The position numbers were made by a program, and so were the translations under genes. A stretch of 64,000 nucleotides of DNA, taken from the NCBI RefSeq assembly GCF_963921235.1, contig NC_086097.1, forward strand, positions 1,984,001 through 2,048,000. Direction: 5' to 3'. Shown here in pieces: positions 8,721 through 55,491 of the stretch; within the stretch, counting starts at the first letter, position 1; each line of letters begins with the position of its first letter. The notes below the pieces were generated by a model. It saw nothing but the letters and a program-made list of their open reading frames with translations. It was not told where the DNA came from and did not search any database. The DNA is from Mobula hypostoma (lineage: Eukaryota).

Positions 8721-8840
8721 CATCAGCACCCTCCACCGAGCACTCAAGCATGCAGCAAGCATCAATATAGACACAGAGTAACACACATCAAAGTTGCTGG
8801 TGAACGCAGCAGGCCAGGCAGCAACTCTAGGAAGAGGTAC

Positions 8841-8876
8841 AGTCGACGTTTCAGGCCGAGACCCTTCGTCAGGACT
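8841..8876 (-). ncRNA. Minimal type-I hammerhead ribozyme motif within a Penelope-like terminal repeat (repeat spans ~8779-8912)
   Basis: Minus strand reads AGUC-CUGACGA-AGGGUCUCGGCCU-GAAA-CGUC-GACU: helix I AGUC/GACU, intact core, helix II AGG/CCU, palindromic ACGU helix III and GUC cleavage triplet. Confidence 0.8.
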
Positions 8877-8957
8877 AACTGAAAGAAGAGCTAGTAAGAG
8901 ATTTGAAAGTGGAGTACCCCAAAGACTACTCGTTCACCTGGTATTCGACATACCACA

Positions 8958-8959
<2 letters not shown>

Positions 8960-8997
<38 letters not shown>
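8960..8997. repeat. (CT)n microsatellite
   Basis: Pure CT dinucleotide run. Confidence 0.98.
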
Positions 8998-8998
<1 letters not shown>

Positions 8999-9819
8999 AT
9001 ACGGGAGAAAGAGGTGTCCCTGCTTCACAACGAGAGGGGAGATATAACAAACAACTCTCTGATTCACGATGTTAAAAGTCTGTTGCTTTGTTTTTCCCGA
9101 GCTCTGCACCCAGACAGTCGGCTCCAGAAAGGCGCAGTTCTCTGGATACAGTCCCCGGCAGCTAACCCGCTGCTCCCAATATTCCATGTTCTCCCGCAAC
9201 GCTTCAGTCAGGGGCACCGGCCTAGAATCAGCTCGTCCCCAGAGCCACGGAAATCCAGAACCCTGAACGCGCACTCGTCTTCCAGGCGCGTCCTTGGGAT
9301 ATCAAAAAGCAGCTGGTCGTGAGGCCCATTCCCACAAAGAACCAAGGTCTGAGTGTAACTCCACATCAGGGTCTTCAACAGATTCTGCAGGAATGGAAAT
9401 GTGAACCAGTTGCAAATACTGAAAATCTGAATTAAAATCAGAGATTTGCACAAATCAGAGAATAAGGTGTCGGGGGAGTGTGTCAGGAAGTTTGAGCTGG
9501 GATTTGAATAGAAACAGATGCACAGTGTGAGAGTTACGACTGAAAACACCCATCCTTCGAGCAATGCAGGACGTCAGCAGGACAGGCAGCTTCTAAGGGA
9601 GAGGAGGGATTAACAGTTGACTCTTCGGGCCAACACCCTTCATCAGGAGTGTAATTCTAACTGATTATTACTTCATGTAGTCCTCATGAGGAAATTGGTG
9701 GCGAGAGGATTAAGTGACCATCTTCTCAATGTCGTCTAGTTTGTGTCTGACCATTCAGGAAAAATGGGCAGGTCACTGAAATCACCCTCTTCACCTGAGA
9801 CTGAAACAGATTCCACTCC

Positions 9820-10560
9820 TGATCAGAATCAGAATCTGAATATCACCGCATATATCGTAAAATTTGTTTCACAGCAGCAGTACATTGCAATGCGTAATAA
9901 TACAATATAAATTACAATAAGAAATTTAAAAATTAAATTAAATAATTAATGCAAAAAGAAAGCAAAAACAAAGCTAAGGTAGTGTACACGGGTTCATTGT
10001 CCATTCAGAAATCTGATGGCGGGGGGACTGAGGTAGTGTACACCAGTTCATTGTCCATTCAGAAATCTGATGGCGGGGGGACTGAGGTCTTGTACACGGG
10101 TTCACTGTCCGTTCAGAAATCTGATGGTGGGGGGACTGAGGTAGTGTACACGGGTTCACTGTCCGTTCAGAAATCTGATGGTGGGGGGACTGAGGTAGTG
10201 TACACGGGTTCACTGTCCGTTCAGAAATCTGATGGCGGAGGGACTGAGGTCTTGTACACGGGTTCACTGTCCGTTCAGAAATCTGATGGTGGGGGGACTG
10301 AGGTAGTGTACACGGGTTCACTGTCCGTTCAGAAATCTGATGGCGGAGGGACTGAGGTCTTGTACACGGGTTCACTGTCCGTTCAGAAATCTGATGGCGG
10401 AGGGGAAGAGGCTGTTCCTGAAACATTGAGTGAGTGTCTTCAGGCTCCTGTTCCTCTCCTTGACGGTGGCAATGAGAAGAGGGCACGTCCTGCCTGATGA
10501 ATGCTGCCTTTTTGACGCATTGTTTTTTGAAGGGGTCCTGAATGCAGGGGAGGCCAGTGT
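9820..10560 (-). mobile_element. Rex1/Babar 3' fragment with an internal tandem expansion
   Basis: ATCAGA-type tail at ~9822. Minus-strand remnant GLPCIQDPFKKQCVKKAA, then TTCAGGAACAGCCTCTTCCCCTCCGCCATCAGATTTCTGAA (FRNSLFPSAIRFLN). Confidence 0.7.
9976..10405. repeat. 54-bp tandem repeat, ~8 copies
   Basis: Unit GAGGTAGTGTACACGGGTTCACTGTCCGTTCAGAAATCTGATGGTGGGGGGACT. It produces the 18-aa periodic ORFs 9949-10497 and 9974-10762. Confidence 0.97.
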
Positions 10561-10784
10561 TCACGATGGAACTGGCTGCGTTTGCAACTGCGAAACACTT
10601 TATTATATAACTGAGGTTTAAATTTTCAATCCTGTCCCTGAGGAAACTGAACAAATTCATAGCAATAGCAAATGCCATTGATGCACTATTGCCAGGGTTC
10701 AAATTTCCATTTAATTCAAGCCCAACAGATTGCTGACTTATGACATTCACCCATGCGTCCACAGTAAACCGCGAAGGGAACCAG

Positions 10785-11045
10785 AACCTTGTCGTGGATT
10801 GGAGGCTTGTGTGCCTCGATGACCTGGAAAACGACGTTGGCTGGAGTCAGGGCTTTATGCTTTGGCTCTTGGTAGGGTCACCCATGCCAAACAGGTCAAA
10901 GGGTAGAAGCCAGACTAAAAGTGGCCCACCGGTCCTCCAGGTTCGGGGGTTCAGCTCAGGGATAACAACCCTGACTGGTCAAACAAAACTGTTACGTTCG
11001 CAGCGATAAAGAATCCTCTGTATCTGTGTGTGACGGGATGGACCC
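10785..11045 (+). mobile_element. RTE-clade 5'UTR-like repeat fragment
   Basis: CCTTGTCGTGG..GGCTTGTGTGCCTC..GGTAGGGTCACCCATGCCAAACAGGTC..TAACAACCCTGAC resembles RTE 5' leaders (recognised from memory). Confidence 0.5.
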
Positions 11046-12612: not shown

Positions 12613-12894
12613 ATATCGATGTCATTTATAACACAGAGGCTGATAGATTCTTGATTGGTCAGGGCATGAAGGGATTTGGGGAAAAGGCAGGAGACTGGAG
12701 CTGACAGAGATATTGGATCAGTCATGATGAAATGACTCGATGGGCCAAGAGGCCTAATTCTGCTCCTGTATCTGATCGTCTTGTACTAACTGCTGATCCA
12801 AGTAACTGGATGGTAAAGATCCCAAGATATTGTTCAAAGAAGAGCAAGAATTTCTACTGATGCCCCGATTAATATTCCACCCTTAATGAATGAG

Positions 12895-14560: not shown

Positions 14561-14671
14561 CTTTAAGGGACCATAGTGAATACCAGTAATAAAAGTCACA
14601 TTGTTGTTGATAACTCTCATGCAGGATGTCCACTGTTTTTACAATAATAAATACCATTAATGAAAATCAAT

Positions 14672-14912: not shown

Positions 14913-15082
14913 AGAACACCATTCACTTCTGCACAAGTTGACGCCAGGCTGAGACATTAGTTACTTCTGTCAAAAACCTCTTGATTTCAGTGTCTGATAT
15001 GTAACTAATATAGAAAATATGACAATTTTCCAAAATTTTACCCAGTTGACCTTCCCAAGAAGCCTTCATTCCATCTCGGAAT

Positions 15083-30375: not shown

Positions 30376-30721
30376 GTCTGAATGTGTATAGTCTGGCCTT
30401 TGACAAGGTGCCACACATGAGGCTTCTTAGCAAGTTAAGAGCTGATGGTATTACAGGGAAGTGACTAACATGGTTAGAGCATTGTCTGGTTGGCTGCCAG
30501 TGCCAGTTCCACAGGGGTCGGTGTTGGGACCACTTCTTTTTATGCTGTATATCAATGATTTAGAATAGATAATGGAATAGATGGCTTTGTTGCCAAGTTT
30601 GCAGATGATACAAAGGTTGGTGGAGGGGCAGGTAGTGTTGAGGGAACAGGTAGACAGATTAAGAGAATGGACAAGAAAGTGGCAAAATGATACACAATGT
30701 TAGAAATAAATGTGCAGACTG

Positions 30722-31117
30722 TAGCCTCCAACCTGATGGCATGAACATCAATTTCTCAACTTCCGGCAATGTCCCCACCTTCCCTTCCTTCACCATCTCC
30801 CATCCCCTTTCCCTCTCTCACCTCATCTCCTTGCCCACCCATCGCCTCCTCTGCCGCTCCTCCCCCCACTTTTCCTTTCTTCCATGGCCTTCTGTCTCTT
30901 TCACCAAGCAACTTCCCAGCTCTTTACTTCATCCCTCTCCCTTCACGTTTCACCTGTCACCTTATGTTTCTCTCTTCCCTCCCTTCACCTTTTAAATCAA
31001 CTCCTCAGCACTTTTTCTCCAGTCCTGCTGAAGGGTTTTGGCCCGAAACATCAACTGTACTTTTTTCCATAGATGCTGCTTGGCCTGCTCAGTTCCTCCA
31101 GCATTTTGTGTGTGTTG
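30722..31117 (+). mobile_element. Penelope-like 3' end (endonuclease C-terminus, pyrimidine-rich UTR, terminal repeat with decayed hammerhead at 31021-31056)
   Basis: SLQPDGMNINFS, then AGTCCTGCTGAAGGGTTTTGGCCCGAAACATCAACT. Confidence 0.75.
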
Positions 31118-31119
31118 AA

Positions 31120-34165: not shown

Positions 34166-34417
34166 TCTGATTCCGATGAATGAATTTGTTCAGGTTTTGC
34201 TGCCTGTTCCCTGCAGGCAAATCTCTCCACGGGTAGTGCAAATTCTGAAAATTACTCTTTCCACCTTCTGAGCTTTCTAAAATAGACAGACATTAAACAA
34301 TATATACTGCTTGAGTGGGAAGTTGATATAGAGGAGTCATCTACTCTAAAACCTTGTTTCCTGAAAATAGTTCTATAGAATTAAAGAATGCATTTGCAAA
34401 GATGCTTCATGGTTATA

Positions 34418-34960
34418 CACATAAAATACTGAAGGAACTCAGCAGGTCAGGTAGCTGAATAAAAGTCGATGTTTTGGGCCACGACCCTTCATCAGGAGAG
34501 GAAGGGAAGGGAAGGGAAGGGAAGGGAAGGGAAGGGAAGGGAAGGGAAGGGAAGGGAAGGGGAAGAAACCAGAATAAGGAGGTGGGGAGGGAAGGGAGGG
34601 GAGAGTTGAAACCTGGTGGTCAGGGGATGGGATGAAGTAAAGGCTGGGAGTTGAAAGGCGGAAAAGGTAAAGGTATGGAGGAGAAGGAATCTGGTAGAAG
34701 AGAGTGGACCATGGGAGAAAGGGAAGGAGGAGGAGAATCCCCATTGGGAGGTGACAGGCAGCTGAGGAGAGAAGATGAGAGGTCAGAGTGGGGAATTGAA
34801 GAAGAGGGAAGTGGAGGGGAACGCTCACCAGAAGCTGGAAAAATTGATGTTCATGCCATTGGGTTGGAGGCTACCTAGATGGAATATGAAGTGTTGGTCC
34901 TCCACCCTGAGAGTAACCGCCTCGTGGCAGGAGAGGAGACCACAGACCAACATGCTGGAA
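34418..34960 (-). mobile_element. Penelope-like 3' end with decayed hammerhead (34464-34497) and an internal (GGAAG)n expansion (34499-34561)
   Basis: Minus strand LRVEDQHFIFHLGSLQPNGMNINFS and CCTGATGAAGGGTCGTGGCCCAAAACATCGACT. Confidence 0.75.
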
Positions 34961-35744
34961 TGAGAATGGGAATAAGAATGAACATGTTTATGTTTGGAAC
35001 AGTGCACATGGTAGTTTGTCTGCAGAACTACTGCATCATATGACAGTAATCATTTTCCCTGAGAACAACGTGTGTTTTGAATCACCTTCTGAGGTCAGTC
35101 GGTAATATTTAATAAGAGTTGCAATAACAGCTACACAAAAGGCCAAATGCTTTTATTTAAATTCAAATGCAATTATGCCTGATTCTGATAAGCCCATTTA
35201 TGGGAACATCTGTTCAGCGCCCATTTGGTTGATTCTCATAAGCTTGAACATGTTGATAAGAATATTTTCAAAGCCTTCAGATAAAGGGCAGTGCACAGAA
35301 TCTGTTTACAAAAAACCTGACTAACGTATAGGCAGCACACTAAATAAAGAGCATTTCTCATCGTCTCAACAATGGCCATCATCATATCACAAGTTTCTGC
35401 CTCTAGTCCTCGAATCTACCTCGTCAAGATCATGTATTTTTCAAAGAAATCCTTTGTAAACTCCTGTGGTTAAAACCAAAATTACATGATCCACGTGGGG
35501 TCATCCCACCATCCCAGGAATTAATCTGGTGAATCTGCACTGTGCTGTCCCTCATGTAAGAACTCGAGCTAACGACTAGACCTATCTGCACTCATTTCCA
35601 ATGTACAATTCACATATAAAGAGGAAAACTGGGCTAGAACTCCAACATGGACAGTCCCAAGCCTGGCTGCAAAAGAAGGGTTTGCATGGAGCTAGCAACC
35701 TCATCCCGTGAAATCCCAGAGCCACAGAAACTCCTGAGGAAGGA

Positions 35745-36821: not shown

Positions 36822-36951
36822 TTTTGATGAAGGGTCTCGGCCTGAAACATCGACTGTAGTTTTTTCCATAGATGCTGCCTGGCCTGCTGAGTTCCTCCAG
36901 CATTTTGTGTGTGTTGCTGAATTTCCAGCATCTGCAGATTTTCTCTTGTTT
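36822..36951 (+). mobile_element. Penelope-derived terminal repeat with 5'-clipped hammerhead motif
   Basis: TTGATGAAGGGTCTCGGCCTGAAACATCGACT. Flanked by the direct repeat GATTACTTT at ~36815 and ~36954. Confidence 0.7.
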
Positions 36952-38950: not shown

Positions 38951-39755
38951 CTAGATAGCAGATGTACTTAATGAATACTTTGCTTCAGTATTTACTGCAG
39001 AAAAGGATCTTGGCGATTGTAGTGATGACTTGCAGCAGACGGAAAAGCTTGAGAATATAGACATTAAGAAAGAGGATGTGCTGGGGCTTTTGGAAAGCAT
39101 CAAGTTGGATAAGTCACCGGGACCGGACTGGATGTACCCCAAGTTACTGTGGGAGGCAAGGGAGGAAATTGTTGAGCCTCTGGGAATGATCTTTGCATCA
39201 TCAATGGGGACGGGAGAGGTTCTGGAGGATTGGAGGGCTGCAGATGTTGTTCCCTTATTCAAGAAAGGGAGTACAGATAACCATATATCCATATAACAAC
39301 TACAACACGGAAATAGGCCATCTCGGCCCTTCTAGTCTGTGCCGAACGCTTACTCTCACCTAGTCCCACCGACCTGCACTCAGCCCATAACCCTCCATTC
39401 CTTTCCTGTCCTTATACCTATCCAATTTTTCTTTGAATGACAATACCGAACTTGCCTCAACCACTTCTGCTGGAAGCTCATTCCACACAGCTACCACTCT
39501 CTGAGTAAAGGAAGTTCCCCCTCATGTTACCCCTAAACTTTTGCCCTTTAACTCTCAACTCATGTCCTCTTGTTTGAATCTCCCCCACTCTCAATGGAAA
39601 AAGCCTATCCATGTCAACTCTGTCGAACCCCCTCATAATTTTAAATACCTCTATCAAGTCCCCCCTCAACCTTCTGCACTCCAAAGAATAAAAACCCAAC
39701 TTGTTCAACCTTTCTCTGTAACTTAGGAGATGAAACCCAGGCAACATTCTAGTAA

Positions 39756-39971
39756 CATACATCAAAGTTGCTGGTGAATGCAGCAGGCCAGGCAGCATCT
39801 ATAGGAAGAGGCGCAGTCGACGTTTCAGGCCGAGACCCTTCGTCAGGACAAAGTCCTGAAACGTCGACTGCGCCTCTTCCTATAGATGCTGCCTGGCCTG
39901 CTGCGTTCACCAGCAACTTTGATGTATGTTGCTTGAATTTCCAGCATCTGCAGAATTCCTGTTGTTTGCGT
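39756..39971. mobile_element. 216-bp Penelope-derived inverted-repeat insertion with 14-bp TSD
   Basis: TSD CAACATTCTAGTAA at 39742-39755 and 39972-39985. Arms ~39754-39829 and ~39855-39930 are near-perfect reverse complements. Confidence 0.9.
39816..39849 (-). ncRNA. Minimal type-I hammerhead ribozyme motif (intact core)
   Basis: GUC-CUGACGA-AGGGUCUCGGCCU-GAAA-CGUC-GAC, core identical to 8841-8876. Confidence 0.8.
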
Positions 39972-41107
39972 CAACATTCTAGTAAATCTTCTCTGCACTC
40001 TCTCTATCTTGTTGACATCTTTCCTATAATTCGGTGACCAGAACTGTACACAATACTCCAAATTTGGCCTCACCAATACCTTGTACAATTTTAACATTAC
40101 ATTTTAACTCCTATACTCAATGCTCTGATTTATAAAGGCCAGCACACCAAAAGCTTTCTTCACCACCCTATCCACATGAGATTCCACTCTCAGGGAACTA
40201 TGCACCATTATTCCTAGATCCCTCTGTTCTACTGCATTCTTCAATGCCCTACCATTTACCATGTATGTCCTATTTTGATTCGTCCTACCAAAATGTAGCA
40301 CCTCACACTTATCAGCATTAAACTCCATCTGCCATCTTTCAGCCCACTCTTCTAACTGGCCCAAATCTCTCTGCAAGCTCTGAAAACCTGCTTCGTTATC
40401 CACAACGCCACCTATCTTAGTATTATCTGCATACTTACTAATCCAATTTACCACCCCATCATCTAGATTATTAATGTATATGACAAACAACATTGAACCC
40501 AATACAGATCCCTGAGGCACACCACTAGTCACCGGCCTCCAACCAACAAACAGTTATCCACCACTACTCTCTGGCATCTCCCATCCAGCCACTGTTGAAT
40601 CCATTTTACTACTTCAATATTAATACCTAACGATTGAACCTTCCTAACTACATTCTTTATATTCCTCGAGCACCTCATTTCCTCCATGCTGCCTATACTT
40701 ATTGTAGATATCTCTCTTTTTCCGAACCAAGTTTCCAATATCCCTTGAAAACCATGGCTGTCTCAAACTTTTAACCTTTCCTTTCAACCTAACAGGAATA
40801 TAAAGATCCTGTACCCTCAAAATTTCACCTTTAAATGACCTCCATTTCTCTATTACATCCTTCCCATAGAACAATTCATCCCAATCTACTCCTTCTAAAT
40901 CCTTTCGCATCTCCTCAAAGTTAGCCTTTCTCCAATCAAAAATCTCATCCCTGGGTCCAGACCCATCCTTCTGCATAATTATATTGAAACTAATAGCATT
41001 GTGATCACTGGACCCAAAGTGCTCCCCAGCTAATACCTCCATCACCTGACCTATCTCATTCCCTAACAGGAGATCCATCACTGCTCCTTCTCTAGTTGGT
41101 ATCTCTA

Positions 41108-41407
41108 GCTTCTTTCCAACTGTGATAAGACTGCTGAACGGATCCTGACCCGGATCTGGGTTGTACCCTCCAAATATCCGGACCTGCCTCTCCGTTTTTT
41201 TGCACTACCTTACTTTCCATTTTTCTATTTTCTATTTATGATTTATAATTTAAATTTTTAATATTTACTAATTTTTACTATTTTAAATATTTTTAATATT
41301 TAATATTTGTAATTCAGGGAGCGGGAAGTGCAGAATCAAATATCGCTGAGATGATTGTATGTTCTAGTATCAATTGTTTGGCGACAATAAAGTATGAAGT
41401 ATAAAGT
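41108..41407 (+). mobile_element. Short Rex1-type 3' end inserted in CR1-B
   Basis: SFFPTVIRLLN codons, AT-rich UTR, AATAAA and (AAGTAT.)n tail. Confidence 0.75.
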
Positions 41408-42602
41408 ATGTATTGCTGCAAAAAAACTATCCTACACACATTTTACAAACTCCAAACCATCCAGCCCTTTTACAGTATGGGCTTCCCAGTCTATGTGTGG
41501 AAAGTTAAAATCTCCCACAATCACAACCTTGTGCTTACTACAAATATCTGCTATCTCCTTACAAATTTGCTCCTCCACTTCTTGCTCCCCATTTGGTGGT
41601 CTATAATACACCCCCATAAGTGTTACTACACCTTTTCCATTCCTCAATTCCACCCAAATAGCCTCCCTAGACGAGCCCTCTAATCTATCTTGCCAGAGCA
41701 CCGCTGTAATATTTTCTCTGACAAGCAATGCAACACCTCCCTCTCTTGGTCCTCCGATTCTATCACACCTGAAGCAATGAAATCCAGGAATATTTAGTTG
41801 CCAATCACACCCCTCCTGCAACCACGTTTCGCTAATAGATACCATATCATACTTCCAGGTATTAATCCATGCTTTAAGCTCATCCATCTTTCTTATAATG
41901 CTCCTTGCATTAAAATAAATGCATTTAAGAAATTTTCCACCTCTTACTCTCTGTTTACCACTAACGGTGCAAACAACTTTACTATTTTCTTTTTCTTCCT
42001 TTTTCCCCACATCTTTTCCTACACTCTGGTTCCCCTCCCCCATCGTATCTAGTTTAAATCCACCGGAGCCTCTCTAGCAAATCTACCTGCAAGAATATTT
42101 GTCCCCCTCCAGTTCAGATGTAAACCGTCCCACCAGAATAGGTCCCACCTTCCCTGGAAAACTGCCCAATTATCTATAAATCTGAAGCCCTCCCTCCTGC
42201 ACCATGTCTTCAGCCACGTGTTGATCTGCGCTATCTTACTATTTCTAAACCCACCTGCACGTGGCACTGGTAGCAATCCTGAGATTGCTATCCTGGAGAT
42301 AGTCCAGGAAATTATAGGCCAGTGAGTCTTACTTCAGTGGTTGGTAAGTTGATGGAGAAGATCCTGAGAGGCAGGATTTATGAACATTTGGAGAGGTATA
42401 ATATGATTAGGAATAGTCAGCATGGCTTTGTCAAGGGCAGGTCGTGCCTTACGAGCCTGATTGAATTTTTTGAGGATGTGACTAAACACATTGATGAAGG
42501 TAGAGCAATAGATGTAGTGTATATGGATTTCAGCAAGGCAGTGGATAAAGTACCCCATGCAAGGCTTATTGAGAAAGTAAAGAGGCATGGGATCCAAGGG
42601 GA

Positions 42603-42744
42603 CATCACTCACTGTCAGACTGTACACCTCCTGCACACACTGATTCTGAAAGTAGACAGGTGATCTCTCACTGTCAGACTGCACACCTTGACAAATTGAT
42701 TCTGAAAATGGACAGGTGATCACTCACTGTCAGACTGTGCACCT
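42603..42744. repeat. ~55-bp tandem repeat, left part (~2.5 units)
   Basis: GACAGGTGATCACTCACTGTCAGACTGCACACCTT.ACA.ATTGATTCTGAAAAT, the same unit as 52912-53268. Confidence 0.88.
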
Positions 42745-43238
42745 TGTCATACGGAGCCTGTGTTGACAGCATACCCAAATGCAAGACACAGACACTGAAG
42801 TACAAGGAACACGACCAGGTTTGTCAAGAAAGCAAGGAAAGAGGGGAAGAAATGATGCAGGACATTGACACAGGCCCTGAATGAGACTAGGATACAGGGC
42901 CTGGGCTAGGACTTGACTAGGAAAGTGAGACCTGGACGAGGAACTGGGAACTTGGAACCTGGACAAGGACTCCGAGCCAGAGACTGGACAGGGACCTGGA
43001 ACCTGGGTTTTGACTCGGGCTCGGACCCTGGATCCAGGCGAGGACACAAAGAGACAGGTCCAAACAACAAAAGACAGCTCCTTATCTAGACACAGCAGGG
43101 CCCTGATCTTGCCTTGGCGGTTGAACCTGACGGTGTGACAGGTGAGGACACAGGCGGAGGTAGCAGGTGAGGCTTCAGGCGGAGATAGCATGCGAGGCTT
43201 CAGAAGGAAGGGGAAGGGGAGGGAAGGGAACAGTCCAG
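42745..43238 (-). mobile_element. Truncated LTR-like fragment
   Basis: Begins TGTCA abruptly within the tandem repeat and has the short internal repeats typical of fish Gypsy LTRs. The other terminus was not found. Confidence 0.45.
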
Positions 43239-43249
43239 AAAATGAAGCT

Positions 43250-46200
43250 GCTGCTTCTTCTTCTTCTTCTTCTGTTGTTTTATAGCGGTTGGCAAACCAG
43301 CTTTAAGGTGTATTACCGCCACCTGCTAGACTGGAGTGCTAAACAACAACATCGAACCTGCCTCAACCACTTTTGCTGGAAGCTCGTTCCACACAGCCAC
43401 CACTCTCTGAGTAAAGAAGTTCCCCCTCATGTTACCCCTAAACTTTTGCCCTTTAACTTTCAACTCATGTCCTCTTGTTTGAATCTCCCCCACGCTCAAA
43501 TCATCTATAATAGAGGTCCAGATCCCTCTTAGCAAAGTGGAAGTCAAGAGCATTATTAAAACTGAGGAGACGTGGCAGAAGCATTGGGATGAGAGTGAGA
43601 CAGGGAGACAACTGTACCAAATACGGAGGCAAGTCAGATACAAAAGATTGTCAAGTGGATATAGAAAGACAGAAGTGATCATCAGTTGTTTGAGAATTGG
43701 ACACACTAATCTTAATTACACATTACACAAAATAGGGAGACATCCAACTGGGTTGTGTGAGTACTGTAATCAACCAGAAAGAGTTGAACATGAATTGATA
43801 AAATGTAAGAAGTATCAAAAAGAGTGAAGATGATAAGAGCGCTTAAGATAAACAAAATAACTGATGTGGGTATAGAAGACATTTTAAGTGGGAATTCAAG
43901 AGAAATACAGATCTGTATCATGAAGTAAGTATCTTGATAAATATTTAATAGCGATATCTTGCTTGCACCCCAGTCCTGTCCGGCAAGACCCCTCAATAAG
44001 TTATTTATTTTTTTAGATTTGTTTGTAATTTTCTCGATTTGCTTTTTCCATGTAAGTGTCTCATCAAATAACAAACCAAGGAATCGAATTACCTTTACCT
44101 GCTGTAATTTTTGTTCATATAATTTCATGGAAACTGGTTTGGGACTTCTTGAGAAACATGTCACTTGCGACTTACTTGTAGACAATTTGAAACCCCATTT
44201 ATTTGCCCACTCTTCCACTTTATTTATCGCATCTTGCATTTTCCTTTGTATATAAATTAAATTTCTTCCCCTCACCCACAAAGCCCCGTCATCTGCATAT
44301 AAGGATTTCCCCACACTATGTTCAACTTGCGCAAATATGTCATTTATCACTAAGGAAAATAGTAATGGACTGCAGACACTACCTTGTGGTGTTCCATTTT
44401 CAACCAAATATGTCCTGGAGTACTCTGTTTCCATCTTGGCTTGAATTGTTCAACCAAAAAGAAAGTCTAGAACTCAATTATATAATTTTCCTTCCACCCC
44501 TAGTTCTTTCAATTTAATTAACACCCCCTCTTTCCAGAGCATATCGTATGCCTTTTCTACTTCAGAAAACACCACCAAGACCATTTCTTTATTTGTTTGA
44601 GCCTTCCTGATTTCAGATTCCCAGCTAAGTATTGAATCTACTGTAGTTCTTCCATTGTGAAAACCGCTTTGGTAGGGAGAAATAAGATTTCTTTTTTCAA
44701 GAAAGTATGTAAGCCTATCAGTTATTATTCGTTCCATAAGTTTACCTAGCTGTGAAGTCAGTGCAATTGGTCAATAATTTGTTGGGTCTGATAAATCTTT
44801 ACCAGGTTTTAATACTGGAACAATAACAGAATGTTTCCATGCAGTTGGTAGTTTACTTATTTCCCATATTTTATTAAACAGTCTCTGTAGAATTAGAGGT
44901 GCACTTCTTGATAAATGCTTCAGCATTATACCCCCTACTTCATCCTTCCCAGGAGAAGTTGGCCGCGCATTCACAATGGCTCTTTCTATTTCTGTTATGC
45001 TAACAGGTGTATCCAGCACTTCTGATGTTGCTCTTTCATCTGGAATTCCTGAATTTTGCTTAGGCCTCTCCTCCCTTTGCTGTCTAGCCTCGACCGTCAA
45101 ATTCTCCGAGCTATGTATGTTTACAAAAGTCTTTGCCACTATTGCTGCTTTCCCTACATTGTTAATTGCCATTTTGTCCTTACTTTTTAGCACAGGAAAC
45201 TCTTCACTACTTCTAATACCATTAATTCTCCTTATCATGCCCCATATTTCAGACAGTTGAGTTTCTCTTCCAATTTCGTTACAATACTGTCTCCAAAATG
45301 CTCGCTTTGCTTGTCTGATTGTTTTCCAAACTTCTGCTTGTGCTCTTTTATATTGTATTAATGTTTCTACCGAATGTTGTCTTTTTAACATTTTAAATGC
45401 TTTATTTCTTGCTTTTATACTTCTACTATATTCACAATTCCACCATGGAACATTTTTCCTCTTTCCTGTACCTTTACTTTTCGGAATTGTTTCTTCTGCT
45501 GAATTTATATTTGTTGTGACCAATTTATCATTCATTTCTTCAATATCTGATATATTTTCATCCAAAATCTTTGTGCATCTTACTTCATTTCTTTTTTGAA
45601 GTATCTCCCACTCTGCCTTATTTAGTTCCCACCTTGACACTCGAGATCCTACATTTTGTTCTATTTTAACCTGAATCCTTGTGAGTAAGGGATAGTGATC
45701 ATTTCCTACTGTAGTTTGTTTCAATACGTTCCAAGTACTGATTCCTGCTAATTCTCTACTTACAAATGTTAAATCTATTGCAGTTTCTGTGTTTTGGGAT
45801 ATATTATATCTCGTACCTTCTCCATTATTTATACATACCAGTTTTTCACCATCTAGAAATTCTTCTATCACTAATCTGTTTTCATCCACATTTTTACATC
45901 CCTATAGTGTACTGTCTCCATTGAAATCCCCACACCATGTTATTTTCCCTTGCATCCTACCACCCACTTCGTTTAATGTATCTTAGCTTAGTCTTCAACA
46001 TGGATTATAATAATTTATTATTACCAAGCTTTCTCTGCCTATCCATATTTTGTTATTATTGATTCATACTTCTGCCCTATGTTGACTATATTATATCTCA
46101 TCCCACTGGCTATAAATATTGCTGCTCCTCCACCATTGCCATTGCTTCTAACCCTCCTAATTGCTGGCTATCCCTGTAAAACAAAATCTAATCGTGGTTT

Positions 46201-47747: not shown

Positions 47748-47748
<1 letters not shown>

Positions 47749-47795: not shown

Positions 47796-47798
<3 letters not shown>

Positions 47799-50611
47799 AA
47801 CCTACACTTTATCCTCCCTGCTTATCCATCATATCCTATAAAAAAACCCTGTAACCCTTAAGAAAGCTAAAAATACCCTGACCTGTGCTCTCTCATCCAT
47901 GCCCAGCAACCCTTTTAATGTGAATTCCTGCACCTCCAATTCCCTTAGATTGATTATCATCATCTCTGCATCCCATACTTCCAGCAACTCAGTACTACAT
48001 GTTCTACTGACTCCTCTTCCTGACATTCCTCACACAATCCTGTCTGGTGTTTCCCTATCATTTTCAATTTTTTGTTTAATGCACAGTGCCCCGGCCTTAA
48101 ACTAGTCCGCACAGTTTCCTCTCATCTGTTTCCATTACCTACCCTAGTACCTGCAACACTCTTTTGTATTTGATATAAATGCCTCCCTTTCCCCTCCCTG
48201 TCCCATCCTTCTTGCCACATTTGGTTGATTTTTTCCCAGATTACACACTTAACCTCTGCTTTACTGATACTAATGTGCATTTCTATATTTTCTTTCTTTA
48301 ACGCCCTCTTTGCCAACTCATCCACCCTCTCATTCCCCTTCACCCCTACATGTGCTGGAACCCATAGAAATTTTACCTGACCTCCCTGATTTGCAATTCT
48401 TGTGACTAACTGAAGGACTTCATGAAGTACATCTTGCCGACTGTTTGAGTGAAAAGACCTTAAATTTGCTAGAACTGAGGATGAATCTGAGCATACCAAC
48501 ACTTTGGCTTGTCTGGCTTTCTGCACCCATCGCAACGCAACCAACACTGCCAGCATCTCCACTGTATACACCCCTAACTTATTAGATGTTCTTCTACTGA
48601 TTCCAATTTCTTTTGCTGGTACAGCCACCCCAAACCCTGTCACTCCTGTTTCAGGTTCCTTAGCACCATCCGTATAAATCTGAGTGTAATCACTATACTT
48701 TTCCATCACATGACAGTTAAATGCACTTACCAGATCAGCTTTATATTTTCCTTTCCATTTTACCTCTAACAAATGCCAGTCTAGGTCAGGCCATACAAGC
48801 TTCCATGGAGCTACAACCGGATAAACTACTAAAGGACTTATCCTTAGATCAAATACTCCACATTCTTTCGCGATATCATTCCCTACCCGATTAAAGTTAT
48901 CCCTCTGAAACCTCCCATTTTCCCAGCAGTCCTGCAACACTCCTTTAGCAGGGTGAGAATCATTGTGCCCCTGCAAATTAGCCCAGTAGTTTGCCATCAA
49001 TTGCATCCTTCTTAGTTCCAGAGGCATTATTCCCATTTCTACCTGTAGTGCTGACACTGGTGACGTTTTAAAAGCCCCACTGCACACTCTCAAGGCCTGA
49101 GCCTGAATCACATCCAGTTTCCTTATAAGAGACCTAGCTGCTGATCCATATACTATATTTCCATAATCCAATACAGATCTTACTAAAGCCACATACATTC
49201 TCTTCAAAGCTGAACAACTTGCTCCTCATTCCCTACCAGTCAAACATCTCATCACATTTATTACTTTTTTACATTTCTCCTCAACTTTCCTGATATGTTC
49301 TGCCCATGTTAATCGTGAATCAAATATAACTCCCAGAAATTTAAATGATGCAACCCTTTCTAATTCAACCCCATACATCCTTAACTTCTTCCCTACCTCA
49401 ACCCTTTTCCTGGTGAAAAATACAGTTTGAGTTTTATCTACTGAAAATCTACATCCCCAATCATAACCCCACTCTACCACTTCATCAATTGCTTCTTGTA
49501 GTTTCCTGATTATATGCTCCATGTTCCTGCCTCTTTTCCACAAGGCCCCATCGTCCGCAAACAGTGACCTACCTATATCCACTGGTACCTTTGTGAAGAC
49601 ATCATTGATCATAATGATGAAAAGTAACGGGCTAATCACACTACCTTGAGGTGTGCCATTTTCCACTATGTACTGTTTTGATCATTCTGATCCAATCCGA
49701 ACTTGAATTTTTCTACCAAACAAAAAATCTTTAATCCAATTAAAAACTCTCCCATCAATCCCCATCTTGTGCAGTTTAATTAATAATCCTTCCTTCCACA
49801 TCATATCACATGCTTTTTCAATGTCAAAAAACACTGCAACTACTGACTCTTTATTTGCCTGGGCCTTTCTTATTTCAGTCTCTAACCTTATCACTGAGTC
49901 CATGGAATTCCTTCCCTTTCTAAATCCACTCTGATATCTTGCCAGCATTCCTCTCTTCTCAAGCTCATACGATAACCTTTCTGTTATCATCCTTTCCATT
50001 ATCTTACATATATTTGATGTTAATGCAATTGGTCTGTAGCTAGTGGGTTTTGATGGATCCTTGCCAGGTTTCCTTATTGGAATTACTACTGCTTCTTTCC
50101 ATGCCCTTGGTAATCTTCCCTCCTCCCACACTCTGTTATAAAAATGCAGCAACTTCAAGAGCGCTCCTTCTCCTAGATTTTTTAGCATCACAGAGCATAT
50201 CAGACCTTTCCCTGGGGAGGTTGGTCTCGACCTTTTTATTGCTCTTACTATTTCTGCCAATGTAAATGGATCATCAATTATATCATCTGTTTCTTCCCTC
50301 CTGTTTAGCACACCTGGGTGTTGGCTCATTGTTCTTTCCCTTCTCTTTCTCCCTTCTTCAGACAAATTTTCTGAACTGTGTATCAGTACAAATGGCCTGG
50401 CCATGATTTCAGCCTTATCCCTACTGGAGACTGCCGTTTCCTCCTTAGATATCATTACTGGATATTCCCATTCCCTTCTATCTCCCCCCATCCTCTTAAC
50501 CATTCCCCATACCTCTCCCACAGGTGTTGTTCTTCCTATTTCGTTGCAAAAACTCCTCCAACTTGCCCTTTTAGTTTGACGTATAGATCTTCTCACCACT
50601 GCCTGTGCTTT

Positions 50612-52074
50612 CATAGTCATAGTCATACTTTATTGATCCCGGGGGAAATTGCTTTTCATTACAGTTGCTCCATAAATAATAACTAGTAATAGAACCATAA
50701 ATAGTTAAATAGTAATATGTAAATTATGCCAGTAAATTATGAAATAAGTCCAGGACCAGCCTATTGGCTCAGGGTGTCTGACCCTCCAAGGGAGGAGTTG
50801 TAAAGTTTGATGGCCATAGGCAGGAATGACTTCCTATGACGCTCAGTGCTGCATCTCGGTGGAATGAGTCTCTGGCTGAATGTACTCCTGTGCCCAGCCA
50901 GTACATTATGTAGTGGATGGGAGACATTGTCCAAGATGGCATGCAACTTAGACAGCATCCTCTTTTCAGACACCACCGTCAGAGAGTCCAGTTCCATCCC
51001 CACAATATCACTGACCTTACGAATGAGTTTGTTGATTCTGTTGGTGTCTGCTACCCTCAGCCTGCTGCCCCAGCACACAACAGCAAACATGATAGCACTG
51101 GCCACCACCGACTCGTAGAACATCCTCAGCATCGTCCGGCAGATGTTAAAGGACCTCAGTCTCCTCAGGAAATAGAGACGGCTCTGACCCTTCTTGTAGA
51201 CAGCCTCAGTGTTCTTTGACCAGTCCAGTTTATTGTCAATTCGTATCCCCAGGTACTTGTAATCCTCCACCATGTCCACACTGACCCCCTGGATGGAAAC
51301 AGGGGTCACCGGTGCCTTAGCCCTCCTCAGGCCTACCACCAGCTCCTTAGTCTTTTTCACATTAAGCTGCAGATAATTCTGCTCACACCATGTGACAAAG
51401 TTTCCTACCGTAGCCCTGTACTCAGCCTCATCTCCCTTGCTGATGCATCCAACTATGGCAGAGTCATCCGAAAACTTCTGAAGATGACAAGCCTCTGTGC
51501 AGTAGTTGAAGTCCGAGGTGTAAATGGTGAAGAGAAAGGGAGACAAGACAGTCCCTGTGGAGCCCCAGTGCTACTGATCACTCTGTCGGACACACGGTGT
51601 TGCAAGCACACATACTGTGGTCTGCCAGTCAGGTAATCAAGAATCCATGACACCAGGGAAGTATCCACCTGCATCGCTGTCAGCTTCTCCCCCAGCAGAG
51701 CAGGGCGGATGGTTTTGAACGCACTGGAGAAGTCAAAAAACATGACCCTCACGGTGCTCGCTGGCTTGTCCAGGTAAGCGTAGACACGGTTCAGCAGGTA
51801 GATGATGGCATCCTCAACTCCTAGTCGGGACTGGTAGGCGAAATGGAGGGGATCTAAGTGTGGCCTGACCATAGGCCAGAGCAGCTCCAGAACAAGTCTC
51901 TCCAGGGTCTTCATGATGTGGGAGGTCAATGCCACTGGTCTGTAGTCATTGAGGCCGCTGGGACGCGGCGTCTTCGGCACAGGGACGAGGCAGGACGTCT
52001 TCCACAGTACAGGAACCCTCCGGAGCCTCAGGCTCAGGTTGAATACATGGCGAAGTACTCCACATAGCTGAGGG
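50612..52074 (-). mobile_element. Young 5'-truncated Rex1/Babar LINE (RT) inserted in Nimb-B
   Basis: YRPVALTSHIMKTLER, FFDFSSAF, TGAPQG, QKFSDDSAIVG, LNVKKTKELVV, one frameshift, (GACTAT)n tail. Confidence 0.92.
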
Positions 52075-52911
52075 TTCTTATATTGAACCAAATGCTGCAT
52101 ATTATGGGTTCTTTTAACTAGCCTGAATGCTCTATTTCTGTTTTTTTACAGCCTGACAACACTCCTCTGTCCACCATGGTACCAGTTTTCTATTCATCCT
52201 AATTTTTATTTTTACTTCTGGATATAGATCCTTCTGCTGCCATAATGATTGCTGAAGTCACCTGACTGTTTAATTCATCTATATTTCCAGAAATGTCAAT
52301 CTTTGTCAATGCCTCTTCACTCGACTTCTGGAACTTACCCCAATCTGCGTTTCCAAACACCCACTTTGGGATTCCACCACCTGATCTTATTTCAATTATT
52401 TCACTCACTGAACATAAAACTGGGTGGTGATCACTGCCTATGCTGAAGCAGTCCAAACTCCCCAGTTACTAACACCAGCCAACGTATTAGACACTAACGT
52501 AATATCTAATATTGACTCAGTTCCTGTTGTTATGTTTATCCTTGTTCCTCTACCATCATTCATACACACCAAATCCCTTTCTTCCATCAAATTTTCAATT
52601 ACCTTTTCACTTGAATCTGCAATCTGATCTCCCCATATTGTGCTGTGAGCATTGAAATCTGCACACCACACTACTTTATGTCTGTTTTGTCCTTGTATCC
52701 TTAATAGGCTGTCCAAATCCAACCTTTTACATGGGATGTAGTAGTTAATTATAACCACTCCCTCGCCTCTCTCCCACACTTCCACAACTATGTATTCCTG
52801 ATCATCTCCTTTTTCCAGTACCCTATATGGTTTCTCTTGCTTGATTAACATAGAACAACCCTCTCCACCCCCTAGATTTCTATCTTTCCCTATAATTGTC
52901 TACCCATGTAC

Positions 52912-53268
52912 CAGGTAATCACTGGCTGTCAGACTGCACACCTACACACATTGATTCTGAAAATGGACAGATGATCACTCGCTGTCGGACTGCACACCTT
53001 CACGCTGATTCCAAGAAATGGACAGGTGATCACTCACTGACAGACTGCACACCTTCACACATTGATTCTGAAAACAGACAGGTGATCACTCACTGACAGA
53101 CTGCACACCTTCACACATTGATTCTGAAAACAGACAGGTGCTCACTCGCTCTCAGACTTAACACCTTCTTCACACAGTGATTCTGAATTGGACAGGTGAT
53201 CACTCGCTGTCAGACTACACACCCTCAGACACTGATTCTGAAAACGGACAGGTGTTCACTGTACACCT
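52912..53268. repeat. ~55-bp tandem repeat, right part (~6.5 units)
   Basis: Unit CAGGTGATCACTCACTGACAGACTGCACACCTTCACACATTGATTCTGAAAACAGA. Confidence 0.92.
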
Positions 53269-53989
53269 TTAGACACGGTTTCCGATGTAGGCAGTAGCAC
53301 AGTTTGAATACTGTTTCAGCTTCTTCAGTTTCTCCTCCAGCAAGGAATTCGCAAAAGGTTGTACCTGAGCAAATTTGGGGCTACACTGAAACAATGGTGC
53401 CCCAGTCCAAGTGCGGATAACAAACTGATGTGTGCCTGATTTAAGTGCCAAACGAGTTAAGGCATCGAGGCAGAGGCCATAGGACGTAGCCATGTTCAGC
53501 TGAATATTCTGTCCGGGTTTACGCATCTCTGTGCTGAACTGTCTCCGGGGCTGTGGTCTGCAGTCATCGGGCTCCTGGACTGGTGTCACTTGCCTCTGTG
53601 CTGAAATGTCTCCGGGGCTGTGAACTCACTCTCAGGGTGTCTGCAGTTCACGTTCTGTGTGGTATTTGTTTACTTGTTTATTGTTTGGATAATTTGTTCT
53701 TTTCTCACACATTGGGGGTTTGACGGTTTGTTCTGTGTGGGGCAGGGTTTTTCAGGGATTCTATTGCGTTTCTTTGTTTAGTGGCTGCCTGCAAGAAGAC
53801 AAACCTCAAGGATGTGTATAGTCTGCGTAGTTTGATAATAAATGTACTTTGAACTTTGAACTTGTTACTTTGGGACTGGAAGTGATTGGTCAGGTTTGAA
53901 GGGGCGGATACTCCTGATCCTCAAACTTATATATCCACATCAGTCTGCAGAGGCTGGAATCCAAAGCATCACATCATCAGGATTGAGTG

Positions 53990-54215
53990 ACACACACAAC
54001 ATGCAGGAGGAACTCAGCAGGTCAGGCAGCATCAATGGAATTTCATAAACTGTTGGCGTTTCAGGCCGAGACCCTTCAGCAGGATTGAAAAGGAAAGGTG
54101 GAAGGTGACAGAATAAGAGGGTGGGTGAGGGGAATGAGGACAGGTTAGTAGATAGGTGAAGGCCAGGTGGGTGAGGAGGGGGATGATGTGAGAAGCTGGA
54201 GGTGAGAAGTGGAAA
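53990..54215 (-). mobile_element. Penelope-derived terminal repeat with decayed hammerhead (a further fragment at ~54878-54990)
   Basis: Minus strand ATCCTGCTGAAGGGTCTCGGCCTGAAACGCCAAC. Confidence 0.65.
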
Positions 54216-55491
54216 AGTTCAGACATATAACAGGTAGCCGGCATTGAAACCTGCCGGCAAGAACCCGTCAACGTGTCCTCATTTTCCCTCCTTTCATTTA
54301 ATTGTTGCAACTTTATGTTCTTTGCACTGCCACATAGTAAACTGGACTCTGATTCTTTTCACTTCCATTTGAATTCACATTTTAGTGAATGACGGGTCTT
54401 TAAAATGATGAGAGGTTTTGTTTGAGAGGGTATGTTTGTGCTTGAGTAAACTGAAAATAGGGCCCATTAATTTATGACAGTCATCTAAAAAAAATGAGGT
54501 GGTAATATAATTTTCTTTTGCCTGGAGTGCTGTTAATGTGGAAATTGCAAACTAAAGTTAATTTAGATGTATTGACCAAGAGTCAGTGAGAGAGAAAAGG
54601 TTTTGCTGATAGATTTTATTGAGAATAGATAAAGGATGAAGACCGAATGGCCAACTCCAGGCTGTAAATTCTACATGAGAGTCACAGGAAAGCACAACAC
54701 AGGGGCAAGTCCCTCAGCCCATCTAGTTCCTGCTGAGCCATTTACTCCCATCGACCACAGCCCTCCATACCCCTACCATCCACATATTTATCCAGACTTC
54801 TCTTAAACATCAGAATCAAAATCACACGCACTATGACCCCCTGAGTGAAAGAATTGTTTTGTCAGAATGCACAAAAGTAACACGAGAAAGTCTGCAGATG
54901 CTGGAAATCCAGAGCAACACACACAAAATGTTGGAGGAGACCAGCAGATCAAGCAGCATCATGTTTGGCCGAGACCCTTCACCAGGACTTACCGATTAAT
55001 TAACTGATTGATGGAGCTATGGGAAGAAACTGCAGTCTGCCCTACATGTGACCCCAGGGGCGCAGATAATGTACTTACTTCCTAGCAAAGGTAACCAGAA
55101 AACTAATAACTTTGACCTTGTCAATGATACTTGTGTTTTTCTGATTAATGTAAAAGATGAAAATAGTTCTTATTTACATCCCAGAGTGGAGTTAATTTAG
55201 CCACAAACAGCTCTTGTATCCAATGTATTAATTAACTGTTTGATAAATCTCATAAAATAAATCAGTTAGAAGACATTCAATTATCACAGTAGAAGAAATT
55301 ATTCAGGACAGAGCCCAAACCAGCAGGGTGAAGTTCCTTCTCTCTGATCTCAGTGTCTGCATCTTGTGTCAGGCCAGTCCAGAGCTACCTGGTAACCCGA
55401 TTACGACGAAAGGTGTTTGTTGTTCACTATGCAATAGGCTGTGAAGGGCAGAATTCTGCACCAGCTCACAGCATTTATCACAATACGTTAT

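What the first reader, a model, noticed from the sequence alone, without database searches (positions are those of the whole stretch)
8779..54990. Dispersed family of minimal type-I hammerhead ribozymes, about eight copies forming a decay series
Seen: the same motif occurs intact at 8841-8876(-) and 39816-39849(-). Mutated copies lie at ~9625-9650(-, GAAG), 31021-31056(+, CUGCUGA), 34464-34497(-, AAAA), 36824-36855(+, UUGAUGA), ~54053-54086(-) and ~54962-54989(-). At 30722 and 34418 it lies downstream of a Penelope-like endonuclease C-terminus (LGSLQP(D/N)GMNI), which ties it to a PLE. Helix III is the loopless palindrome ACGU. Known: such minimal PLE hammerheads are thought to cleave as dimers. 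Inference: at this density the genome holds very many copies, and intact ones could cut host pre-mRNA transcribed on the minus strand, possibly pairing in trans between copies.
Basis: partly seen in the sequence, partly recalled or inferred. Interest (0 to 1): 0.7.

Follow-up and report, generated by a model that had tools for sequence, protein, structure and literature searches.

The report
Penelope retrotransposon minimal hammerhead motifs
The repeated motif is the minimal hammerhead ribozyme that Penelope-like jumping genes carry near their 3' ends, a class described in 2014, and the window copies are broken remnants of such elements.

Summary
All eight motif copies are at the stated places. 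Two are identical and complete; chance would give 0.01. The same 28-mer occurs 46,653 times in the 3.48-Gb genome.

The motif has the published hallmarks of the Penelope-like-element (PLE) minimal hammerhead (Cervera & de la Peña 2014):
- CUGANGA…GAAA…GUC in type-I order;
- an unpaired A after A9;
- no helix III loop, only the palindrome ACGU.

Full-length genomic copies show motif, reverse-transcriptase/GIY-YIG ORF, motif. In 66 of 70 regions downstream of endonuclease hits, the motif and a conserved tail follow.

The "decay series" is really at least three PLE families plus CpG decay. Across families the 36-38-nt hammerhead block is a conserved island, but I found no covariation.

Nothing here shows cleavage:
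- Rfam hammerhead models do not match.
- Predicted energies favour a rod hairpin over the double hammerhead.
- Only 1 of 100 sampled copies starts at the cleavage site.
- A family with a mutated core (A6C; 1,031 exact copies) still multiplied.

The idea that copies cut host pre-mRNA is untested and looks unlikely. This is a new member of a known kind, of low to moderate interest.

The parts
8777..8914 (-). 5'-truncated PLE 3' end, young family Y, with a complete hammerhead motif. C3 is at 8872 and C17 at 8845; the predicted cut lies between 8845 and 8844. Helix I (5 bp) pairs 8873-8877 with 8840-8844.
   Evidence: 94-98% identical to the L023 element over 136-139 nt.
39746..39861 (-). PLE 3' end, family Y, with a complete core (C3 39846, C17 39819). 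It is truncated about 6 nt 5' of C3, which leaves 3 bp of helix I.
39855..39971 (+). Inverted (head-to-head) partner arm. It starts inside the motif (…CCTGAAACGTCGAC) and forms a hairpin of about 190 nt with the arm above.
   Evidence: fold of -164.8 kcal/mol; weak mir-3926-like Rfam hit, 43.1 bits against a cut-off of 82.
30721..31117 (+). 5'-truncated PLE, family D. It holds the last codons of the endonuclease ORF (…SLQPDGMNINFS), a CT-rich 3' UTR, a motif with an A6C core (CUGCUGA) at 31021-31056, and the tail.
34415..34987 (-). 5'-truncated PLE, family B-like. It holds an ORF C-terminus (…EDQHFIFHLGSLQPNGMNINFSSFW*), a 3' UTR, a decayed motif at 34464-34497 (G12 to A), and the tail.
36825..36951 (+). 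PLE 3' end truncated at the start of the motif (UUGAUGA…GAAACAUC), with the long form of the tail.
9565..9651 (-). Old, decayed motif plus tail (…GGCCCGAAGAGTCAAC).
53988..54132 (-). Older copy with an A6C core (CUGCUGA) and GAAACGCC.
54879..54992 (-). Copy with CUGGUGA and an internal deletion that removes GAAAC…linker; the tail is kept.
7660..7771 (+). PLE tail fragment that starts inside the motif (…AAAATGTCAACTG); there is no 5' core.
60793..60971 (.). Old head-to-head pair of decayed PLE 3' ends: 60793-60885(-) and 60912-60971(+).

Best explanation
These are copies of the minimal type-I hammerhead motif that Penelope-like retrotransposons (PLEs) carry in their terminal repeat (pLTR).

Anatomy in this genome:
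- The motif lies about 300 nt after the stop codon of the reverse-transcriptase/GIY-YIG ORF.
- It lies 95-135 nt before the 3' end of an insertion.
- A second conserved block, the tail, follows it.

The window copies are 5'-truncated or inverted PLE 3' ends. They were dead on arrival and are decaying neutrally, mostly at CpG sites.

Shown here: the motif, its PLE context, its copy number, and its conservation across families.

Inferred from published work on the class: in a PLE transcript that holds two sense copies (pLTR-ORF-pLTR), the two motifs pair through ACGU/ACGU and swapped helix I strands. This forms a double hammerhead that cuts after GUC, weakly, and probably only with help from the element's protein.

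My data add that catalysis is not needed for spread in this genome.
For: Motif features:
- Core boxes in type-I order, an unpaired A after A9 (the only invariant column of 64 aligned copies), the ACGU palindrome, and a 5-bp helix I.
- These match four features listed by Cervera & de la Peña 2014 (PMC4209133).

PLE context:
- L023 reads motif, 998-aa ORF, motif, with 3,512 nt between the motifs. L025 reads motif, 635-aa ORF, motif.
- The L025 ORF hits RVT_1 (E 4.9e-5) and GIY-YIG (E 1.8e-3), both below Pfam's cut-offs.
- The L025 ORF is 92% identical to the L023 ORF.
- The nearest Atlas clusters carry HTH_animal, RVT_1 and GIY-YIG (score 0.97).
- 66 of 70 regions downstream of endonuclease matches hold the motif plus tail.
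- L023 has an inverted 5'-truncated copy upstream.

Numbers and conservation:
- 46,653 exact 28-mers and 68,462 exact 25-mers.
- Across four family consensus sequences the hammerhead block is nearly identical. The 7 nt upstream agree at 0-4 of 7 positions and the linker at 6-12 of 15-17.
- In contigs of four runs from four other coded organisms, similarity breaks at 8839/8840 and 8875/8876, which are the ends of helix I.
Against: - No Rfam hammerhead family matches, even at E up to 10.
- There is no covariation: score 0.137 against a shuffled mean of 0.144, with 408 of 500 shuffles at least as high. Only one-sided changes occur: G-C/G.U at 10.1-11.1 and C-G/U.G at 2.5-1.5.
- RNAalifold predicts 0 pairs on the 64-row alignment.
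- The dominant family has a G10.1.U11.1 wobble instead of the G-C pair typical of the class (36 against 21 of 64 copies).
- Helix II has 4 bp, not the 6-8 bp described for flatworm and fly PLEs.
- Predicted energies disfavour the active fold. The double hammerhead is -12.7 kcal/mol, the best dimer -32.7, and the monomer folds as a rod hairpin at -12.2 in which GACG of the core pairs with CGUC.
- Cleavage was not observed here in any way.
Confidence: 0.85

Rival explanations
1. The hammerhead-shaped block is kept in these elements for a non-catalytic job, for example as part of the 3' RNA module that the element's protein recognises before reverse transcription. Self-cleavage would then be vestigial or dispensable.
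For: - A family with a mutated core (A6C, CUGCYGA) multiplied: 1,031 exact copies.
- Its N7 make-up is T 64, C 33 in the first 100 listed, against T 4, C 94 for the A6 form (my count).
- 18 of 20 sampled A6C copies share their own upstream UTR and linker but have different flanks.
- Three A6C copies follow endonuclease remnants: L037, L062 and window 31021.
- The largest family carries U11.1.
- Helix II and its loop are as conserved as the core.
- Only 1 of 100 copies anchored just 3' of the cut site begins at that site.
- The rod hairpin is predicted to be more stable than the active fold.
- Frangieh et al. 2024 (PMC11167929, passages read) report that catalytic mutants do not affect insertion in vitro, and that they found no RNA-seq reads ending at the cleavage site.
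Against: - The core boxes are intact in the great majority of young copies.
- The class is conserved across eukaryotes, with canonical active hammerheads in plant and fungal PLEs (PMC4209133).
- That A6C abolishes activity is recalled from classical mutagenesis and was not tested here.
- Nearest-neighbour energies ignore the tertiary contacts of the core.
Confidence: 0.25
2. One reading: complete copies embedded in host pre-mRNAs cut those transcripts, alone or by pairing in trans with other copies.
For: Only the copy number supports it: 68,462 core-intact 25-mers, so many must lie in transcribed DNA.
Against: - Pairing in trans rests on 4 bp of ACGU plus two 5-bp helices, and is predicted 20 kcal/mol less stable than the competing duplex.
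- Published in vitro activity of such motifs is low even as dimers (PMC4209133; PMC6765202).
- The copy at 39816 is locked in a -164.8 kcal/mol hairpin.
- No gene annotation or RNA data were available to test it.
Confidence: 0.03
3. The copies are non-LTR retrozymes: short tandem hammerhead repeats that give circular RNAs.
For: Same type of ribozyme, and a proposed PLE origin (bioRxiv 10.64898/2026.07.22.740005, abstract and Results part 1 read).
Against: - The copies are dispersed, not in head-to-tail arrays.
- Among the first 100 exact genomic sites, no same-strand pair lies within 1 kb (my count).
- The copies continue upstream into PLE 3' UTR and ORF.
Confidence: 0.03

Closest known systems
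Minimal hammerhead ribozymes (min-HHR) of metazoan Penelope-like elements (Cervera & de la Peña 2014, Mol Biol Evol, PMC4209133)
   Same: - Type-I order of the core boxes.
- No helix III loop, with palindromic 15.x/16.x positions.
- An unpaired nucleotide between A9 and 10.1.
- A short helix I (4-5 bp).
- Location in the repeats that flank an RT/GIY-YIG ORF.
- Most copies are single, on truncated elements.
- Some pairs lie close together on opposite strands.
   Different: - Helix II has 4 bp (two of them wobble pairs in the main family), not 6-8.
- The main family has G10.1.U11.1.
- Sequence variety is very low here, and I saw no compensatory changes; the paper stresses high variability.
- The copy number (68,462 exact 25-mers) exceeds the roughly 9,000 reported there for Xenopus.
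Poseidon element of Anolis carolinensis (PAc) and its protein-assisted hammerhead (Frangieh et al. 2024, Mob DNA, PMC11167929)
   Same: - A vertebrate PLE with a hammerhead in the pLTR.
- Catalysis is not required for insertion.
- Insertions end at internal RNA positions and are followed by a 'tail'.
   Different: - In PAc the ORF starts inside the hammerhead. Here the open frame starts about 218 nt after the motif.
- The two clusters of 3' ends here lie about 35 nt apart, not adjacent.
Small hammerhead variants of PLEs that cleave as dimers (Lünse, Weinberg & Breaker, RNA Biol 2016/17)
   Same: By its title, and by the description in PMC6765202: small PLE-associated hammerheads that act as dimers.
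   Different: I could not read the paper; it is not held. I saw only its reference entry and the review's summary.
Canonical type-I hammerhead (Rfam Hammerhead_1 and relatives)
   Same: The catalytic core boxes and the helix I/II arrangement.
   Different: No helix III stem-loop, and no Rfam hit at E up to 10.

Membership tests
PLE minimal hammerhead (min-HHR) | Core boxes CUGANGA … GAAA … U-H cut site, in type-I order | tested here: met
   2 complete copies in the window; 46,653 exact 28-mers in the genome.
PLE minimal hammerhead (min-HHR) | No helix III loop; palindromic 15.1-16.1 (dimer interface) | tested here: met
   GAA-ACGU-C in complete copies; family consensus sequences keep ACGU, or ACnU/ACGUU in family C.
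PLE minimal hammerhead (min-HHR) | Unpaired nucleotide between A9 and 10.1 | tested here: met
   This A is the only invariant column in the 64 aligned copies.
PLE minimal hammerhead (min-HHR) | Conserved G10.1-C11.1 pair | tested here: inconclusive
   G-C in 21 of 64 copies, G.U in 36, unpaired in 7. C11.1 is the majority in runs X9 and X24.
PLE minimal hammerhead (min-HHR) | Lies in the repeats flanking an RT + GIY-YIG ORF | tested here: met
   L023 and L025 read motif-ORF-motif; weak RVT_1 and GIY-YIG hits below cut-off; Atlas neighbours; 66 of 70 endonuclease-linked regions.
PLE minimal hammerhead (min-HHR) | Helices supported by covariation between families | tested here: not met
   Covariation score 0.137 against a shuffled mean of 0.144, 408 of 500 shuffles as high; RNAalifold gives 0 pairs. 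The helices hardly vary, so this says little either way.
PLE minimal hammerhead (min-HHR) | Self-cleavage after GUC, as a dimer | not testable with these tools
   No confirmed RNA run was found. Contigs cannot show RNA ends.
Canonical type-I hammerhead (Rfam models) | Match to an Rfam hammerhead covariance model | tested here: not met
   0 hits at gathering score and none among the 8 hits at E up to 10.
Non-LTR retrozyme | Head-to-tail tandem array of short hammerhead units | tested here: not met
   The window copies are dispersed. There are 0 same-strand pairs within 1 kb among the first 100 exact genomic sites (my count).
Penelope-like element (the carrier) | Single ORF with RT followed by a C-terminal GIY-YIG endonuclease; pLTRs; frequent inverted 5'-truncated partner | tested here: met
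   The Pfam scores are below the curated cut-offs, so the domain calls also rest on visible motifs (…GVIYCVRCSRCGLLYIGET…) and on the architecture.

The most novel reading that the evidence does not exclude
In this genome the hammerhead-shaped block is kept and copied for something other than self-cleavage.
- One PLE family whose master had a mutated catalytic core (A6C) still produced at least hundreds of independent insertions.
- The largest family carries a G.U pair at 10.1/11.1.
- The whole 36-38-nt block, loop included, is a frozen island across at least four families and in four other organisms' data.
- Genomic copies almost never begin at the cut site.

The block may act as a protein-recognition or folding module next to the site where reverse transcription starts.
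Probability: 0.25. Interest if true: 0.5.

Novelty: new member of a known kind. Interest (0 to 1): 0.25.

Why it matters
The finding places a very abundant repeat of a large vertebrate genome in a known class, so it should not be scored as a new ribozyme. Earlier notes of this scan call the genome a cartilaginous fish; I did not test that.

Three points have modest value:
- The motif count is several times the highest reported in 2014.
- A family with a mutated core still amplified. This is natural-history support for the in vitro result that PLE insertion does not need hammerhead catalysis.
- The motif escapes Rfam, so automated annotation will miss tens of thousands of copies.

Tried and rejected
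- Rfam search of the whole window at gathering score and at E up to 10: no hammerhead family. The only notable hit was a mir-3926-like hairpin, which is the inverted PLE pair.
- Pfam on decayed endonuclease fragments: nothing relevant. Pfam on the 998-aa and 787-aa ORFs: 0 families at E up to 0.01. PDB sequence search with the 998-aa ORF: only two chance-level capsid hits.
- RNAalifold on the 64-row alignment: 0 pairs.
- RNA evidence: no RNA holder listed. The four runs laid are contigs of uncertain kind, so they show neither expression nor RNA ends.
The 35-place version reads only 18 nt upstream.
- The Lünse et al. paper is not held.
- Rejected, chance motif: excluded by the counts and the reversed controls.
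- Rejected, retrozyme tandem array: the copies are dispersed.
- Rejected, single-family decay series: the copies fall into families Y, B and D.
- Not done: a tree of the ORF against named PLE clades (Neptune, Poseidon and others); gene annotation of the window; a genome-wide, unbiased family reconstruction.
Full report
**Observation**

The pattern CTGANGA-N(4-30)-GAAACGTC matches at 8845-8872(-) and 39819-39846(-). That is 2 matches against 0.01 expected from shuffles. The two share an identical 31-mer, and 36824-36854(+) differs from it at 3 positions.

A profile built only from genomic copies outside the window finds 12 fragments in the window, 7 on the minus strand and 5 on the plus strand. 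They are the eight reported copies plus four partial ones.

The same 28-mer occurs 23,291 + 23,362 = 46,653 times in the 3.48-Gb assembly; the reversed control gives 0. A 25-mer that allows C or U at 11.1 and does not require CGTC occurs 68,462 times.

**What the motif is**

Read on its own strand, the complete copy is 5'-UUAGUC | CUGACGA | A | GGGU-CUCG-GCCU | GAAA | CGU C^ | GACUG-3'.

- It has the hammerhead core boxes in type-I order.
- It has an extra unpaired A after A9.
- Helix II has 4 bp and a tetraloop.
- There is no helix III loop, only the palindrome A15.1-C-G-U16.1.
- Helix I has 5 bp.

Cervera & de la Peña (2014; PMC4209133, parts 1-2 of 4 of the text read, through the start of Methods) list four non-descriptor hallmarks of the PLE minimal hammerhead:

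- G10.1-C11.1;
- palindromic 15.2-16.2;
- families with covariation.

The first and third are met here. The second is met in older families but is G.U in the dominant one. The fourth is not met (see "Conservation and covariation").

Rfam's hammerhead models do not match, either at gathering score or at E up to 10. This is expected for a motif without helix III.

**Tie to Penelope-like elements**

I used a decayed endonuclease fragment as a protein query against the genome. This gave 105,905 first-look candidates and some long open frames.

- Locus L023 reads, in element orientation: an inverted 5'-truncated copy, then a motif at 1196, then a 998-aa open frame (1414-4410), then a motif at 4708.
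- L025 reads: motif at 837, a 635-aa frame, motif at 3477.
- The L025 frame hits RVT_1 (E 4.9e-5, 23.6 bits against a cut-off of 29.6) and GIY-YIG (E 1.8e-3, 19 against 22.6). It is 92% identical to the L023 frame.
- The nearest Atlas clusters (score 0.97) carry HTH_animal, RVT_1 and GIY-YIG.
- The L023 ORF ends …GVIYCVRCSRCGLLYIGET…EEQHLIFRLGSLQPDGMNIDFSNFR. This is the same C-terminus as the window peptides.
- I fetched 60 regions downstream of further endonuclease matches and added 10 earlier loci. 66 of these 70 hold the motif plus a conserved tail, typically about 370-680 nt into the fetched downstream region (L070 at 176).

An RT followed by a C-terminal GIY-YIG domain, terminal direct repeats, and inverted truncated partners together define PLEs. 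That definition is established knowledge; see also PMC4209133 and PMC6765202.

**Anatomy**

- The motif lies about 300 nt after the ORF stop, behind a CT-rich 3' UTR that differs between families.
- A family-specific linker of about 20 nt follows the motif.
- After the linker comes a strongly conserved tail (…GATGCTGCCTGRCCTGCTG…).
- Among 55 copies measured, the 3' ends cluster at 93-106 nt (19 copies) and 115-136 nt (28 copies) from C3.
- This recalls the internal start of reverse transcription and the "tail" described for the Anolis element (PMC11167929, passages read). There, however, the two start sites are adjacent.

**Window copies**

All are PLE 3' ends.

- Two still carry ORF C-termini: 30721-31117(+) and 34415-34987(-).
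- Several are cut off at or inside the motif: 36825(+), 39855(+) and 7660(+).
- 39746-39971 is a head-to-head inverted pair.
- In the listing, I counted 9 opposite-strand pairs within 1 kb among the first 100 exact sites. All 9 are in the -/+ order. None is +/-, and none is on the same strand.

**"Decay series"**

The copies belong to at least three families.

- Family Y (8841, 39816) has upstream …TTAGTC and linker TACCTCTTCC.
- Family B-like (9625, 34464, 54053) has upstream …CCAGTC and linker TTTATTC….
- Family D (31021, 36824) has linker TACTTTTTTCC.
- On top of the family differences, the changes are mostly CpG transitions: N7 C to T, CGTC to CATC, GAC to AAC, and CCCG to CCCA or CCTG.

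**Conservation and covariation**

I aligned 57 endonuclease-linked copies plus 7 window copies. Before aligning I dropped 4 of the 66 with no recognisable core (L027, L028, L036, L060). I also dropped 5 rearranged or truncated ones (L044, L054, L061, L072, L073) and the deleted copy at 54962.

- For the 9 hammerhead pairs, 87.9% of cells are paired. This equals the shuffled mean of 87.8%.
- The covariation score is 0.137 against 0.144, with 408 of 500 shuffles at least as high.
- Only three single cells show changes on both sides.
- RNAalifold predicts no pairs.

The helices barely vary, so the test has little power.

The other criterion goes the other way. Between the consensus sequences of families Y, B, C and D:

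- helix I 5' strand agrees at 4-5 of 5 positions;
- CUGANGA at 5-7 of 7;
- helix II stem at 7-8 of 8;
- GAAA at 4 of 4;
- helix I 3' strand at 5 of 5;
- the 7 nt upstream at only 0-4 of 7;
- the linker at only 6-12 of 15-17;
- the tail at 20-22 of 23.

Independent data agree. Contigs of four runs from four other coded organisms pile up only on 8777-8914. Their loose ends cluster at 8839/8840 and 8875/8876, which are the outer ends of helix I. In two of those runs C, not U, is the majority at 11.1. The G.U form is therefore a derived expansion by CpG to TpG change.

**Does it cleave?**

Nothing here shows cleavage, and several results argue that cleavage is weak or dispensable.

1. Predicted energies:
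   - The double-hammerhead pairing of two 46-nt copies scores -12.7 kcal/mol. The best dimer scores -32.7, and two separate monomers -24.4.
   - The monomer's best fold is a rod hairpin in which G5-A6-C7-G8 pairs with C15.2-G-U-C17.
   - Nearest-neighbour models ignore the tertiary contacts of the core, so this is only a hint.
2. The copy at 39816 lies in a hairpin of -164.8 kcal/mol that buries GAAACGUCGAC.
3. I listed 100 copies anchored on the 17 nt just 3' of the cut site. 99 carry at least the 10 nt 5' of the site. Only 1, an inverted junction, begins at G1.1. Cleaved 3' fragments are therefore not a common template.
4. Core-mutant counts:
   - A6C occurs 1,031 times and A6G 569 times, against 68,462 for A6.
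   - A transversion outnumbering a transition points to a lineage, not to scatter.
   - The first 100 A6C copies have N7 = T 64, C 33, A 2, G 1. The A6 copies have T 4, C 94 (my counts).
   - 18 of 20 sampled A6C copies share a distinct upstream UTR and linker but have different flanks.
   - Three A6C copies follow endonuclease remnants.
   - A family whose master carried A6C therefore transposed many times.
   - That A6 is essential for catalysis is recalled from classical hammerhead mutagenesis. I did not check it in a paper.
   - The result fits Frangieh et al. 2024. They report that catalytic mutants do not change insertion in vitro, that cleavage needs the protein, and that they found no reads ending at the cut site.

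I could not test it: there is no gene annotation and no confirmed RNA run. The genome-wide strand counts are symmetric, which says nothing about orientation relative to genes. The energetics, and the low in vitro activity reported for the class (PMC4209133; PMC6765202), make it unlikely.

**Comparison and novelty**

This is the PLE minimal hammerhead class. It is known since 2014, was surveyed again in vertebrates in 2026 (bioRxiv 10.64898/2026.07.22.740005, abstract and Results part 1 read), and has been studied biochemically (PMC11167929).

Local features are a 4-bp helix II, a dominant G.U at 10.1/11.1, very low sequence variety, a very high copy number, and an amplified core-mutant family. 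I rate it a new member of a known kind.

Earlier notes of this scan call the genome a cartilaginous fish. I did not test that.

Noticed in passing
window 39746-39971: A head-to-head inverted PLE pair folds into a near-perfect hairpin of about 190 nt (-164.8 kcal/mol). It gives a sub-threshold mir-3926-like Rfam hit. Among the first 100 exact genomic motif sites, 9 such pairs within 1 kb all have the -/+ order. Such hairpins could be substrates for small-RNA pathways.
   Followed up: partly
L026-L085 and the window copies, 93-136 nt 3' of C3: The 3' ends of PLE insertions fall into two clusters. One ends near …GTGTGTTGCTTG (93-106 nt from C3, 19 of 55 copies). The other lies about 35 nt further on, near …CAGCATCTGCAGA… (115-136 nt, 28 of 55). 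This may reflect two sites where reverse transcription starts.
   Followed up: partly
window 71-94 columns of alignment A1 (e.g. window 8790-8825 minus strand): The tail block GATGCTGCCTGRCCTGCTG… is as conserved across PLE families as the hammerhead block (20-22 of 23 positions). AUGCUG…CAGCAU could form a stem. I did not analyse its structure.
   Followed up: no
window 771-1943(-), 5011-5640(-), 6076-6837(-), 40104-45901(-), 48122-52899(-), 63043-63999(+): The window is packed with LINE remnants: APE-type endonuclease, RVT_1, RNase H, a GDSL esterase-like ORF1, and ALKBH8_N-like segments. No host exon was recognised among the 47 of the 99 ORFs of at least 110 aa that were scanned.
   Followed up: partly
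window 9946-10846: A tandem repeat with a period of about 54 nt lies next to the 9625 copy. It shows as a ladder of self-matches at 10082-10404 and gives spurious low-complexity Pfam hits.
   Followed up: no
L023 (G000:C52:92123400-92129400): The 998-aa open frame reads RYNDN where the 92%-identical L025 frame reads RYIDD, at the presumed RT active-site motif. Long open frames in this family are therefore not all catalytically intact.
   Followed up: no
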